The notes under the pieces: generated by a model
The model's input: the letters and a program-made list of their open reading frames with translations, nothing else
Databases searched by the model: none
What the model was told of the DNA's origin: nothing
Translations under genes and position numbers: made by a program
Source of the DNA: a virus
Taxonomy: Duplodnaviria; Heunggongvirae; Uroviricota; Caudoviricetes
Strand: one strand, 5' to 3'
Length of the DNA: 14,478 nt
Virus record (IMG/VR): IMGVR_UViG_2713896899_000013
Coordinates: 1 to 14,478 of that record
Shown here: positions 11,558-14,478 of the stretch, in pieces
Position numbering within the stretch: the stretch's first letter is position 1
How the letters are laid out: each line of letters begins with the position of its first letter

Positions 11558-12094
11558 ATGTCATTTATTAAAACTTTTTCCGGGAAGCATTTTTATTATG
11601 ACAAGATAAATAAAGACGACATCGATATTAACGATATCGCGGTTTCCCTTTCAAATATCTGTCGCTTTGCAGGACATCTTTCACACTTCTACAGCGTCGC
11701 CCAACATGCGGTGCTTTGCAGCCAGCTGGTACCGCAGGAATTTGCTTTTGAAGCGTTAATGCATGATGCAACAGAAGCTTATTGTCAGGACATCCCCGCG
11801 CCACTGAAACGCCTTCTTCCTGACTATAAACAGATGGAAGAAAAAATAGACGCCGTGATCCGTGAGAAATACGGGTTACCCCCGGTGATGAGCACGCCCG
11901 TGAAATATGTCGATCTCATCATGCTGGCAACCGAACGCCGCGATCTCGGGCTTGATGATGGCTCTTTCTGGCCTGTACTGGAAGGAATCCCGGCAACAGA
12001 GATGTTCAACGTGATTCCACTGGCACCGGGCCATGCCTACGGGATGTTTATAGAACGCTTCAACGAGTTATCGGAGTTACGCAAATGCGCATGA
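11558..12094 (+). CDS. yfdR: HD-domain phosphohydrolase (YfdR-like 5'-deoxynucleotidase), 178 aa
   Basis: H...HD metal-binding motif (VAQHAVL ... ALMHDATEAY); GGAGAA 5 nt upstream of the ATG at 11558; the track's 11531 start is an upstream GTG. Confidence 0.8.
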   Translation: MSFIKTFSGKHFYYDKINKDDIDINDIAVSLSNICRFAGHLSHFYSVAQHAVLCSQLVPQEFAFEALMHDATEAYCQDIPAPLKRLLPDYKQMEEKIDAVIREKYGLPPVMSTPVKYVDLIMLATERRDLGLDDGSFWPVLEGIPATEMFNVIPLAPGHAYGMFIERFNELSELRKCA

Positions 12095-12447
12095 ATGTCT
12101 TCGAAATGGAAGGGTTTCTTCGCGGGAAATGTGTACCGCGAGATCTGAAAGTGAATGAAACGGATGCTGAATACCTGGTACGTAAATTCGATGCGCTTGA
12201 AGCTAAATGTGCAGCACAGGAAAACAAAGTAATACCTGTGTCAGCTGAACTGCCGCCAGCAAATGAAAATGTTCTGTTATTTGATGCTAATGGAGAAGGC
12301 TGGCTGATTGGCTGGCGTTCTCTCTGGTACACATGGGGGCAAAAAGAAACCGGAGAATGGCAGTGGACATTTCAGGTCGGGGACCTTGAAAACGTCAATA
12401 TCACTCACTGGGCAGTAATGCCGAAAGCACCGGAGACTAAGAAATGA
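12085..12447 (+). CDS. yfdS: YfdS-like protein (DUF551 family), 120 aa
   Basis: GGAG 8 nt upstream of the ATG; overlaps the yfdR-like 3' end by 10 nt; size matches K-12 YfdS. Confidence 0.7.
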   Translation: MRMNVFEMEGFLRGKCVPRDLKVNETDAEYLVRKFDALEAKCAAQENKVIPVSAELPPANENVLLFDANGEGWLIGWRSLWYTWGQKETGEWQWTFQVGDLENVNITHWAVMPKAPETKK

Positions 12448-12650: not shown

Positions 12651-12718
12651 CAAAATTAATTATCAGGACTGAAATTTGATATTACTGCCCGTGTGCAGCG
12701 GGCTAAGTGGAGAAACAT

Positions 12719-12925
12719 ATGCTGAACCTCGATTGTGTTCCTATCTCAACTTATTGCAAAGAAACTGGCGAAACTCCTGAAGCAATAAACAAACGTGTAC
12801 AGCGCGGTGTTTGGCGTGAAGGTGTTCAGGTTTTAAAGGTTGAAGGCGTTAAGGAGAGGTGGATTGATCTTAGTGAGGTTGCAAAATGGGCCAGACAAAA
12901 CTGCTCAAACTACCGCGCGGCGTAA
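12719..12925 (+). CDS. xis: Excisionase-like small DNA-binding protein
   Basis: Small basic protein directly upstream of, and overlapping, the integrase gene, as lambda xis does with int; GGAGAA upstream of the ATG at 12719 (the track's 12707 is a GTG). Confidence 0.6.
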   Translation: MLNLDCVPISTYCKETGETPEAINKRVQRGVWREGVQVLKVEGVKERWIDLSEVAKWARQNCSNYRAA

Positions 12926-14064
12926 CAATCAGGAAACACCGCCAGGGCGAAACGATCAATATAACTTTCACCTACAAAGGAGTTAAATGTCGTGAGCCTC
13001 TTTCCAATCTGGAAGTAACACCAAAGAACATTAAATACGCCGAGCGCACACTCGGCGAAATTCATAATAAGATCGAAAGGGGAACATTCATTTATGCGGA
13101 ATATTTTCCCCGTTCTGCTCGTTTGAAAATTTTTGGTAATGCTGCTGCAGGCAAAACGGTAAAAATGTACCTGGACGAATACCTTGAAATCTGCGAAACG
13201 AGAAAACTTTCACCATCTACGATTGGTGGCTATAAAAAATGCCGTAGTGCGTTAGCCTCACTCCACATTTGCCCTGCAAGTGAATTAACACCAGCAATCC
13301 TGAAAGCGTGGATTCAAAGCCAGAAAACGACCTTAAAAACAATTCGCAACCAGTTATCTTTCCTGCGGTCAGCACTTGATGAAGCCGTAACCGATGGGGT
13401 ACTTCAAATTAACCCCGTATCGTTGGTAACTGCTTCGCGCTACCAAAGTGATAAGTCAGAAGCAGAAAGCAGCTACGTGGTTGATCCGCTATCACCAGCA
13501 GAAGTTGATGCATTACTAGCGGCTGCTGGAAATAAACAATGGGAGAATCTGTTCCGGTTCGCCATACATACAGGCCTGCGTAGTTCTGAATTATGTGCCC
13601 TTCGATGGCGTGATATCGACTTTGTTGGAAAAACTGCCCATGTCCAGAGCGCAAGTGTTGTCGGTGTTATCAAAGGGACAAAGACAAAAGCCGGTACTCG
13701 TAAAGTTGAACTGACAGAAGAGGCAATGTTGGCGCTGATAAATCAGAAGCCATTTACATTCATGAAGGATGCTACTGTCTTTGAAGATCCAAAGACCAAT
13801 AAGCCTTGGGCAAGTGCTGATGCAATTAGGAAAAAAGCATGGGTGCCAATATTGCGAAAAGCAGGTATTCGTTACAGAAACCCATATCAGACCAGGCATA
13901 CATTCGCCACCAGCCATATCAGCCGAGGGGCAAACCTGTTTTGGCTTTCAGTTCAAATGGGGCATAAAGGGCCGGAGATGCTTTTCAGGCACTATGGTCG
14001 ATATTTGAAAGACTATGATGGAAATACAGAACACAAGCCTAAGCTGGTCAGTGGTAAGACATAA
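12886..14064 (+). CDS. int: Tyrosine recombinase / phage integrase (392 aa)
   Basis: C-terminal catalytic region with conserved R (GLRSSE), H-x-x-R (QTRHTFAT) and the terminal H...Y (HKGPEMLFRHYGRY) pattern; sits next to the att core. Confidence 0.9.
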   Translation: MGQTKLLKLPRGVTIRKHRQGETINITFTYKGVKCREPLSNLEVTPKNIKYAERTLGEIHNKIERGTFIYAEYFPRSARLKIFGNAAAGKTVKMYLDEYLEICETRKLSPSTIGGYKKCRSALASLHICPASELTPAILKAWIQSQKTTLKTIRNQLSFLRSALDEAVTDGVLQINPVSLVTASRYQSDKSEAESSYVVDPLSPAEVDALLAAAGNKQWENLFRFAIHTGLRSSELCALRWRDIDFVGKTAHVQSASVVGVIKGTKTKAGTRKVELTEEAMLALINQKPFTFMKDATVFEDPKTNKPWASADAIRKKAWVPILRKAGIRYRNPYQTRHTFATSHISRGANLFWLSVQMGHKGPEMLFRHYGRYLKDYDGNTEHKPKLVSGKT

Positions 14065-14137
14065 AAGGAGCCGCAAAAGATCCGCATAATAAAATGATTA
14101 GTATTAATCGTTTTATTTCAGCTAATTATAAAAATAC

Positions 14138-14169
14138 GGACTCGGGTTCAACTCCCGCCAGCTCCACCA
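14138..14169 (+). other. ssrA: Attachment-site core: copy of the last ~32 nt of ssrA (tmRNA) ending in CCA, with one mismatch; not a complete tmRNA gene
   Basis: GGACTCGGGTTCAACTCCCGCCAGCTCCACCA versus the E. coli tmRNA 3' end GGACGCGGGTTCAACTCCCGCCAGCTCCACCA (recalled); the sequence upstream is the int gene, so the 5' 330 nt of ssrA are absent here. Confidence 0.8.
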
Positions 14170-14214
14170 AAATTCTCCATCGGTGATTACCAGAGTCATC
14201 CGATGAAGTCCTAA

Positions 14215-14248
14215 GAGCCCGCACGGCGCAAGCCCTGCGGGCTTTTTT
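14215..14248 (+). terminator. Intrinsic terminator downstream of the ssrA fragment (likely the native ssrA terminator)
   Basis: Stem GCCCGCA / TGCGGGC followed by TTTTTT. Confidence 0.7.
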
Positions 14249-14317
14249 GTACCCTCAATTTGTCCCGCGAAGTCCGAAGAGAACTAATTAAATCCGAACC
14301 TTTTAGGCCCATTGATA

Positions 14318-14352
14318 GGCCCAACGAAAAGCTCTATTGTTTTCGTTGGGCC
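14318..14352. promoter_or_regulatory. Perfect 13-bp palindrome upstream of the second integrase
   Basis: GGCCCAACGAAAA (14318-14330) and TTTTCGTTGGGCC (14340-14352) around a 9-nt loop, plus a direct repeat AGGCCCA at 14305 and 14317; no U-tract, so it is more likely a binding site or 5' UTR structure than a terminator. Confidence 0.4.
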
Positions 14353-14372
14353 TAAACGCATGGAGACTCCCC

Positions 14373-14478
14373 ATGGCAAGAAAAACCAAGCCGTTAACCG
14401 ATACGGAAATCAAAGCCGCCAAACCTAAAGATGCCGATTACCAGCTGTATGATGGTGAAGTGGTCAACAAAAACTGGC
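14373..14478 (+). CDS. 5' end of a second tyrosine integrase, P4 / CP4-57 IntA-like (partial; runs off the window)
   Basis: MARKTKPLTDTEIKAAKPKDADYQLYDG matches the N-terminal arm-binding motif of P4-family integrases; GGAG 7 nt upstream; located after the ssrA 3' end as intA is in E. coli K-12. Confidence 0.7.
   Translation, partial: MARKTKPLTDTEIKAAKPKDADYQLYDGEVVNKNW

What the first reader, a model, noticed from the sequence alone, without database searches (positions are those of the whole stretch)
14064..14478. Prophage ends at a degenerate ssrA 3' copy, followed by a second integrase: tandem islands at the tmRNA locus
The integrase at 12886-14064 reads into a 32-nt copy of the tmRNA 3' end with one mismatch on its 5' (phage-proximal) side, then a terminator, then a P4-type integrase start at 14373. 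This implies the lambdoid prophage inserted at ssrA next to a resident CP4-57-like element, or the reverse. The mismatch marks roughly where the crossover occurred. A complete ssrA is expected beyond the other prophage end, outside this window.
Basis: partly seen in the sequence, partly recalled or inferred. Interest (0 to 1): 0.55.

Follow-up and report, generated by a model that had tools for sequence, protein, structure and literature searches.

The report
Prophage end at displaced ssrA fragment
This is the integrase-side end of a temperate phage inserted in the tmRNA gene (ssrA), next to an older island whose integrase gene is broken by an insertion sequence; the arrangement is real but ordinary and already well described.

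Summary
Window 14137-14169 is a 33-nt copy of the E. coli ssrA 3' end with one mismatch (T14142 for G). It follows a xis-int pair (12707-14064) and a 72-nt AT-rich spacer. After it come the native ssrA trailer and terminator, then the start of a CP4-57-type intA at 14373.

The window holds no complete tmRNA gene. In four related prophages, a complete 363-nt ssrA lies at the far end of a roughly 40-45 kb prophage. Two of these carry the same arm and the same T-bearing fragment as the window.

The mismatch is not decay. It belongs to the phage attP. The same arm plus T-fragment occurs with at least seven different host flanks that start right after CCA, and the intact ssrA of lysogens keeps G.

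The integrase is 92% identical in protein to that of Citrobacter phage PhiNP, which was shown experimentally to integrate into the last 25 bp of ssrA in E. coli K-12.

An IS911-family element cuts intA after codon 28, at 14456-14458.

The phage was probably the later arrival. Tandem islands at ssrA are a known phenomenon, so interest is low.

The parts
12707..12925 (+). Excisionase gene (xis, 72 aa), overlapping the start of int
   Evidence: phrog_2917 excisionase, E = 1.6e-45. It aligns with the annotated xis of Citrobacter phage phiNP.
12886..14064 (+). Tyrosine integrase of the prophage (392 aa), transcribed towards the attachment site
   Evidence: Pfam Arm-DNA-bind_2 + Phage_integrase. 92% amino-acid identity to the phiNP integrase, whose ssrA target was mapped experimentally (PMC6456863).
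14065..14136 (+). P arm of the phage attachment site: tandem 11-mers GAGCCGCAAAA/GATCCGCATAA (14068-14089), which are candidate arm-type Int sites, followed by an AT-rich spacer
   Evidence: The 11-mers are conserved at a fixed distance from the core in six related elements from E. coli, Klebsiella and Citrobacter. A similar pair lies about 90 nt into the P' arm of relatives. In the window the motif occurs only here, although two matches to so loose a pattern are not in themselves beyond chance. Their function is inferred.
14137..14169 (+). Displaced copy of the ssrA 3' end (33 nt, T14142 in place of G); it contains the 25-27-nt identity block in which recombination takes place
   Evidence: The same arm plus T-fragment is joined to at least 7 different flanks directly after CCA. 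The phiNP 25-bp core equals window 14145-14169.
14170..14250 (+). Original ssrA 3' trailer and intrinsic terminator (GC-rich stem 14217-14242, U-run 14243-14248), of the type found next to CP4-57-like elements
   Evidence: 99.1% identity to the sequence directly downstream of the complete ssrA in E. coli 14EC033. Fold of -25.6 kcal/mol, z = -5.2. Terminator scan.
14251..14372 (+). Upstream region of intA (promoter-like site 14312-14340; inverted repeat CCCAACGAAAA...TTTTCGTTGGG)
   Evidence: Identity to E. coli ssrA-intA loci. Promoter-like match, consensus only.
14373..14458 (+). First 28 codons of a CP4-57-type (P4-family) integrase gene, intA, truncated
   Evidence: Same start and identical 28 residues as annotated intA of E. 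coli 14EC033. The full-length homologue has Arm-DNA-bind_3 + Phage_int_M + Phage_integrase.
14456..14478 (-). Terminal inverted repeat of an IS911-family (IS3-like) insertion sequence that interrupts intA and runs off the window; the transposase is on the minus strand
   Evidence: Contig L008, 99.99% identical to the window, continues 123 nt (11594-11716) beyond the point where the window ends (about 145 nt of IS sequence in all), into the 3' end of an IS911-family transposase gene (...NSNSVASFC*) in inverse orientation. Three draft contigs end within this element.

Best explanation
The window covers the early-gene half and the int-proximal end of a temperate phage. The phage has a lambdoid early region (Q, DUF968, RusA, Dam, replication, cII/cro/cI-like genes, xis, int) and belongs to the SfV/SfIV/PhiNP group. 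It is integrated by site-specific recombination into the 3' end of the tmRNA gene ssrA.

The phage attP carries its own copy of the last 27 nt of ssrA. Five further matching nt lie beyond one mismatch, and the copy is flanked by arms with candidate Int-binding 11-mers. Int recombines this copy with the chromosomal ssrA inside the identity block, most likely in the T-loop segment. The intact gene is rebuilt from the host 5' part and the phage 3' part at the far end of the prophage. The original 3' end, with its trailer and terminator, is displaced to the int end and is now fused on its left to phage arm sequence that includes the phage's T.

What lay directly downstream of ssrA before integration was a CP4-57-like island starting with intA, which now follows the fragment. 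In this lineage that intA is inactivated by an IS911-family insertion after codon 28.

Shown: the anatomy; the phage origin of the mismatch; a complete ssrA at the far end in relatives; the IS insertion; and the orthology of Int to an integrase with an experimentally mapped ssrA target. Inferred: the order of arrival (phage last), the position of the crossover in the T-loop, and the role of the 11-mers.
For: - Fragment: one match with 1 mismatch, none in 200 shuffles. No tmRNA gene in the window.
- Flank: 14137-14458 is 99.1% identical to the ssrA end, terminator and intA start of E. coli.
- Complete genomes: FEX669 and Res13-Sevr-PER07-33 hold 96-97% identical prophages arranged smpB - complete ssrA - about 40 kb prophage - int - fragment - intA or ypjA.
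- IMG/VR: two contigs hold both the window's P arm plus T-fragment and, on the same strand, a complete 363-nt tmRNA gene followed by the P' arm.
- Mismatch: the intact ssrA of lysogens has G while the fragment has T or A. The same arm plus T-fragment is joined to at least 7 different flanks directly after CCA.
- Integrase: 92% identical to the PhiNP Int. PhiNP integrates at the 25-bp ssrA 3' end in E. coli K-12 and rebuilds ssrA (PMC6456863).
- Order of arrival: the same phage is 99.965% identical over 11.3 kb in two hosts whose flanks, including a shared degraded P4-like integrase remnant, differ by 1.2-1.5%.
- IS insertion.
- Background: tandem arrays at tRNA and tmRNA genes and the fragment signature are described in PMC4383910.
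Against: - The other end of this particular prophage and its ssrA lie outside the window. The matching draft contigs break at repeats, so the full arrangement is inferred from relatives.
- The order of arrival in the window's own host background (intA::IS911) was not tested directly. No phage-free genome with the same IS junction was found in any collection searched.
- Nothing shows that this prophage is complete or still able to excise.
Confidence: 0.9

Rival explanations
1. Reverse order of arrival. The phage integrated first into an ssrA with no neighbouring island, and the CP4-57-like element later integrated into the displaced 33-nt fragment instead of the intact gene. The IS911-family element then hit intA.
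For: Both orders give the same final sequence. The fragment keeps the whole T-loop and 3' strand that a P4-type integrase would need, with one mismatch in the T-stem.
Against: - intA lies directly next to the complete ssrA, with a 99% identical flank, in many E. coli genomes, so this is the common resident state.
- In the second host background the phage is about 35 times less diverged than the flank holding the P4-like integrase remnant, so there the phage came last.
- The same arm plus fragment is found next to many different flanks, which fits a mobile phage entering varied resident loci.
- The second element's integrase is now dead.
Confidence: 0.08
2. The fragment, with the sequence upstream of it, is a functional small tRNA-like or tmRNA-like RNA rather than a mere recombination scar. 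It would be transcribed by read-through from int and would end at the ssrA terminator, perhaps like the Salmonella island sRNA IsrM.
For: - Rfam tmRNA gives a sub-threshold match (28.2 bits against a gathering score of 47) that pairs GGAGCCG at 14067 with the 3' acceptor strand.
- 14065-14172 folds better than shuffles, z = -3.4.
- There is no terminator between the int stop codon and the fragment.
- A weak IsrM match covers 14160-14248.
Against: - The GGAGCCG segment is half of a tandem 11-mer that recurs in the P' arm of relatives, which is typical of protein-binding arm sites. It is not kept as a pairing partner in PhiNP (AGCGCCG) or Res13.
- T14142 breaks the T-stem.
- The IsrM match covers only the model's ends, about 250 nt are missing, and it scores 32 bits against a gathering score of 376.
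- ARAGORN finds nothing.
Confidence: 0.02
3. The 33-nt match is a chance similarity or an assembly artefact at a contig end.
For: The window ends inside a repeated IS, where draft assemblies break.
Against: - There were no matches in 200 shuffles.
- The identical junction is present in several independent assemblies and read sets.
- Equivalent junctions exist in closed genomes.
Confidence: 0.005

Closest known systems
Citrobacter rodentium temperate phage PhiNP (OR565852; Magaziner et al. 2019, PMC6456863)
   Same: - The integrase is 92% identical in protein, with xis directly upstream.
- attP holds the ssrA 3' end, and the 25-bp core GGTTCAACTCCCGCCAGCTCCACCA is identical to window 14145-14169.
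- The tandem 11-mer motif sits at the same distance from the core.
- PhiNP lysogens of E. coli K-12 integrate at ssrA. From my own knowledge, K-12 carries CP4-57 directly downstream of ssrA, so those lysogens should have the same tandem arrangement.
   Different: - PhiNP carries cargo between int and attP: an AAA ATPase is annotated, 4369-6156 of locus L014. The window has none.
- Its off-core mismatch is at another position (GCTGG instead of T at the window's site).
- Nucleotide identity of the int region is only 84%.
- The early region of the window is closer to SfV, SfIV and PhiR29.
Tandem genomic islands at tRNA/tmRNA genes (Williams 2003, 'Traffic at the tmRNA gene', cited in PMC4383910; Islander database)
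   Same: The signature is an intact tDNA, an island with an integrase, and a displaced 3' fragment in direct orientation, with a further island following the fragment. The tmRNA gene is the most enriched target, and 125 tandem arrays were counted in 2168 genomes.
   Different: Nothing differs in principle. Here the second member of the array has a disrupted integrase, and its own fragment lies outside the window, so by Islander's strict rule the array cannot be scored from this window alone.
E. coli K-12 cryptic prophage CP4-57 (intA, P4-family integrase, at ssrA)
   Same: The sequence from the ssrA 3' end through the trailer, terminator and first 28 codons of intA is 99% identical to E. coli ssrA-intA loci.
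   Different: intA is cut by an IS911-family element after codon 28. The rest of the element is not in the window, so its content is unknown.
Shigella/E. coli phages SfV, SfIV and PhiR29
   Same: 96-97% nucleotide identity over 56-65% of the window, covering the early region up to about 12438.
   Different: Their matches stop before the xis-int-att module. The window carries a different integration module, of the PhiNP type that targets ssrA.

Membership tests
Integrative element at a tDNA (Islander signature) | A displaced 3' fragment of the target gene, in the same orientation as the gene, at one island end | tested here: met
   33-nt ssrA 3' copy at 14137-14169 (+), 1 mismatch, none in 200 shuffles.
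Integrative element at a tDNA (Islander signature) | A tyrosine integrase gene inside the island | tested here: met
   int at 12886-14064 has Arm-DNA-bind_2 + Phage_integrase. xis at 12707-12925.
Integrative element at a tDNA (Islander signature) | An intact target gene (complete ssrA) at the other island end | not testable with these tools
   This lies outside the window, and the matching draft contigs break at repeats. It is met in four relatives: L003, L012, L029 paired with L025, and L048 paired with L020.
Tandem array of islands at one tDNA | Each member has its own integrase gene and its own tDNA fragment | tested here: inconclusive
   The first member meets this. For the second member only 86 nt of intA are present before an IS911-family insertion, and its fragment would lie beyond the window.
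PhiNP-type ssrA-integrating temperate phages | An integrase orthologous to the PhiNP Int | tested here: met
   92% identity over 384 aa.
PhiNP-type ssrA-integrating temperate phages | attP core identical to the 25-bp 3' end of ssrA | tested here: met
   Window 14145-14169 equals the published core, reverse complement of TGGTGGAGCTGGCGGGAGTTGAACC.
PhiNP-type ssrA-integrating temperate phages | Demonstrated integration, excision and particle production | not testable with these tools
   This needs experiments. The late genes lie outside the window. Relatives encode sheath, baseplate and HK97-type capsid genes.
CP4-57-like island with P4-family integrase IntA | intA start and upstream region directly after the ssrA 3' end and terminator | tested here: met
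   99.1% identity to E. coli 14EC033 over 322 nt, with an identical first 28 codons.
CP4-57-like island with P4-family integrase IntA | A full-length integrase (Arm-DNA-bind_3, Phage_int_M, catalytic domain) | tested here: not met
   The reading frame leaves intA at 14458 and enters the IS911-family inverted repeat, giving the fusion product MARKTKPLTDTEIKAAKPKDADYQLYDGEVVNKNWPPS* in L008. The domains are seen only in the intact E. coli homologue.
Functional tmRNA gene | A complete tRNA-like domain, tag reading frame and pseudoknots | tested here: not met
   ARAGORN finds 0 genes. Rfam finds nothing at gathering score. There is only a 28-bit partial match against a gathering score of 47.

The most novel reading that the evidence does not exclude
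The displaced ssrA end is more than a scar. Read-through from int would yield a short RNA that runs from the phage arm through the T-bearing tRNA-like 3' fragment to the retained ssrA terminator. It would be a tmRNA-end mimic or an island sRNA in the manner of Salmonella IsrM, whose Rfam model shares this terminator. Such an RNA could interact with SmpB, with processing RNases, or with regulatory targets.

A more modest variant is that the conserved tandem 11-mers are the arm-type Int sites, and that the gap between int and these sites is a dedicated cargo slot. That gap holds an AAA ATPase plus Dam, or other genes, in relatives.
Probability: 0.04. Interest if true: 0.4.

Novelty: already known. 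Interest (0 to 1): 0.1.

Why it matters
It matters little beyond annotation. It fixes one prophage boundary to the nucleotide: the host sequence resumes within 14143-14169. It identifies the integration module as PhiNP-type and ssrA-specific. It shows that the neighbouring CP4-57-like integrase is a pseudogene in this lineage. The arrangement is a textbook case of serial use of the tmRNA gene by mobile elements. It also shows that a 'mismatch' in a displaced tDNA fragment can be element-borne sequence rather than decay.

Tried and rejected
- Source genome and species. Two exact-pattern scans of the species-representative genomes found nothing: P arm plus core and the intA::IS911 junction. The junction is also absent from JGI metagenome contigs and IMG/VR. 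No complete E. coli genome extends past window 14458. The host lineage is therefore unnamed, and the phage-free state of this locus could not be examined.\n- Fusion-peptide look-up. I did not spend a 13-CPU-hour protein search to get round this, because the verdict would not change.\n- tmRNA-like fold. I considered the fold suggested by Rfam and by the MFE structure, and rejected it. The supposed 5' acceptor strand is part of a repeated 11-mer that is also found in the P' arm, and it is not conserved as a pairing partner.\n- IsrM. The hit covers the terminator only and scores far below threshold.\n- A second att copy in the window. There is none, so the other prophage end is not in the window.\n- Williams 2003 (PMC142792) is not held in the library. 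It is cited only through the Islander paper.\n- The CP4-57 excision paper (PMC10107115) gave nothing on att sequences.\n- PADLOC found no defence-system match for the left-end cargo ORFs.

Full report
**1. What is in the sequence**

The window's right end reads as follows on the + strand:
- xis, 12707-12925 (phrog excisionase, E = 1.6e-45).
- int, 12886-14064 (Arm-DNA-bind_2 + Phage_integrase).
- A 72-nt AT-rich spacer, 14065-14136.
- CGGACTCGGGTTCAACTCCCGCCAGCTCCACCA, 14137-14169.

This last segment is the 3' end of E. coli ssrA with one change, T14142 for G. It is the only such match in the window, and none appeared in 200 shuffles. ARAGORN and Rfam at gathering threshold find no tmRNA gene in the window, so the segment is a fragment and not the end of a complete gene.

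From 14137 to 14458 the window is 99.1% identical to the stretch of E. coli 14EC033 that runs from the last 33 nt of the complete ssrA through its trailer and terminator into intA. The terminator hairpin (14217-14242 plus a U-run) folds at -25.6 kcal/mol, z = -5.2. The ATG at 14373 is the annotated intA start, and the first 28 codons are identical. The intact homologue has the P4-family domain set Arm-DNA-bind_3, Phage_int_M and Phage_integrase. Two small corrections apply: the copy is 33 nt, and int ends 72 nt before it.

**2.

Homology to intA stops at 14458. The remaining bases, TGAAGTGGTCAACAAAAACTGGC, are the terminal inverted repeat of an IS911-family insertion sequence. Contig L008 is 99.99% identical to the window over 11.6 kb and runs 123 nt beyond the window's end. 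That extra sequence is the 3' end of an IS911-family transposase gene in inverse orientation. The resulting product is a 38-residue fusion peptide. Three independent draft contigs end inside this IS, and the window stops 4 nt short of the end of one of them. The 'second integrase' is thus a pseudogene in this lineage. Whether the rest of a CP4-57-like element follows is unknown.

**3. Is there a complete ssrA at the other end?**

This cannot be seen in the window, which holds a single att copy. The matching draft contigs break at repeats. It can be seen in relatives:
- E. coli FEX669 and Res13-Sevr-PER07-33 carry prophages 96-97% identical to window 2.4-14 kb. They are arranged smpB - complete ssrA - about 40 kb of myovirus-type prophage - int - fragment, followed by an intA-type integrase (FEX669) or ypjA (Res13).
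- Two IMG/VR contigs (UViG_2925877141_000001 and UViG_2721755498_000001) hold the window's exact P arm and T-bearing fragment. On the same strand they also hold a complete 363-nt tmRNA gene (tag ANDENYALAA) followed by phage P' arm sequence.

The prediction is met wherever it can be tested.

**4. The mismatch**

In lysogens the complete ssrA keeps G, whereas the fragment has T in the window, WP5, Res13 and the IMG/VR contigs, and A in FEX669. The P arm plus T-fragment is joined to at least seven unrelated right flanks that begin directly after CCA. The T therefore travels with the element. It is part of attP on the side that never enters the rebuilt ssrA, and it is not decay of a once perfect copy.

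It bounds the crossover on the 5' side only, so exchange must occur within 14143-14169. PhiNP has G at this position but T two bases further on (GCTGG). This leaves the published 25-bp common core, equal to window 14145-14169. By analogy with other T-loop-targeting tyrosine integrases, the exchange most likely lies in the T-loop, 14147-14153. This last point is an inference and was not tested.

**5. Which phage**

The early region matches PhiR29, SfIV, SfV and some Stx2c phages at 96-97%, but those matches stop near 12438. The xis-int-att module is instead of the Citrobacter phage PhiNP type, at 84% nucleotide and 92% protein identity for Int. PhiNP is a temperate myovirus shown experimentally to integrate into the 25-bp 3' end of ssrA in E. 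coli K-12 and to rebuild the gene (PMC6456863). From my own knowledge, K-12 carries CP4-57 directly downstream of ssrA. Such lysogens should therefore have the very arrangement seen here.

**6. Order of arrival**

Both orders give the same final sequence. Three lines of evidence favour the phage arriving last:
- intA directly next to a complete ssrA, with a 99% identical flank, is common in E. coli.
- The identical phage occurs in a second host background. There the flank after CCA is AACATTGATAC..., followed by a degraded P4-like integrase remnant, ykgR/ykgM/ykgO-like genes and csiD. That flank is not E. coli-like.
- Between two such hosts the phage differs at 4 of 11,277 positions, while the flank differs by 1.2-1.5%. 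The remnant is therefore old and the phage recent.

For the window's own background this is an analogy. A phage-free genome with the same IS junction was not found.

**7. How attP is built**

Directly after the int stop codon lie two tandem 11-mers, GAGCCGCAAAA and GATCCGCATAA (14068-14089). They are conserved at a fixed, ungapped distance from the core in six related elements from E. coli, Klebsiella and Citrobacter. A similar pair (GGATACGCAAAGGAGCCGCGG) lies about 90 nt into the P' arm of relatives. This is the layout expected of arm-type sites for an integrase with an arm-binding N-terminal domain. It gives an attP of about 240 bp, in line with the roughly 250 bp quoted for such elements. 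The assignment is inferred.

It also explains a sub-threshold Rfam tmRNA match that paired GGAGCCG with the acceptor 3' strand and a better-than-random fold. I reject a tRNA-like RNA reading for two reasons: the segment is a repeated protein-site-like motif, and it is not conserved as a pairing partner.

**8. Comparison with what is known, and verdict**

The fragment signature, the preference of islands for the tmRNA gene and tandem arrays at one tDNA are all established (PMC4383910; Williams 2003, cited there). The closest characterised phage has had its att site mapped. Identical sequence already sits in several public assemblies.

The finding is correct and cleanly resolved, but it is an instance of a known phenomenon. 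Novelty is 'already known' and interest is about 0.1. The only reading with some novelty is a functional RNA from the displaced fragment, or a dedicated cargo slot between int and the arm sites. Neither is supported by the evidence in hand.

Noticed in passing
window 14456-14478 (continues in L008 11568-11716): An IS911-family insertion sequence, in inverse orientation, interrupts the CP4-57-type intA after codon 28. Three draft contigs end inside it. The junction is absent from 5,426 complete E. coli genomes, from the species-representative genomes, from the JGI metagenome contigs and from IMG/VR.
   Followed up: yes
window 14068-14089; L003 7277-7310; L012, L029 and L048 about +85 to +115 after ssrA: Tandem 11-mers GAGCCGCAAAA/GATCCGCATAA sit at a fixed distance from the att core in six related elements, and a similar pair lies in the P' arm. 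They are candidate arm-type integrase binding sites.
   Followed up: partly
L001 296-3008; L014 4369-7100; L003 45426-46614; L012 3898-4716: In relatives, the gap between the int stop codon and the 11-mers holds varied cargo. This is an AAA-family ATPase plus a DNA adenine methylase in E. coli WP5-W18-ESBL-11, an AAA ATPase in PhiNP, and hypothetical genes in FEX669 and Res13. In the window the gap is empty. It looks like a recurrent cargo-insertion slot just outside attP.
   Followed up: partly
L004-L007 and L009, from about 115 nt after the int stop codon: The same phage (99.965% over 11.3 kb) sits in a second host background that is not E. coli-like. There the ssrA flank holds a frameshifted P4-like integrase remnant followed by ykgR, ykgM and ykgO-like genes (ribosomal L31/L36 paralogues), then csiD-lhgO-gabDT. 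L005 has an extra 1.25 kb in this flank.
   Followed up: partly
L004 and L006, att fragment (about 11284): The displaced fragment has lost 4 nt (CCAGCTCCACCA has become CCAGCCCA). This is real decay of the scar after integration, unlike the phage-borne T.
   Followed up: no
L012 about 3850-3760 (minus strand), directly after the fragment: In E. coli Res13-Sevr-PER07-33 the fragment is followed by a diverged copy of the phage P' arm (ATCATGATTGGACGGTGTAAAAACAAC...). This is the remnant of an earlier prophage of the same att type, and so a third layer at the same ssrA locus.
   Followed up: no
window 14160-14248: A weak Rfam match to the Salmonella island sRNA IsrM covers only the model's first 7 and last ~50 positions (32 bits against a gathering score of 376). 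The IsrM model appears to begin in an ssrA-end-like sequence and to end in an ssrA-type terminator, which hints that IsrM arose at a similar island junction.
   Followed up: no
window 304-852 (+), 1196-2080 (+), 2118-2477 (-): Two genes lie beyond the Q-like antiterminator gene (2118-2477, phrog_79) and are transcribed in the opposite direction. One is DUF2441/phrog_5663, and the other is a 294-aa protein with a weak ion-channel match. They look like cargo genes between Q and the lysis region, and they have no PADLOC match.
   Followed up: partly
window 14296-14352: An 11-bp inverted repeat, CCCAACGAAAA...TTTTCGTTGGG, lies just upstream of the intA start. It is conserved with E. coli ssrA-intA loci and may be a regulatory hairpin for intA expression.
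   Followed up: no
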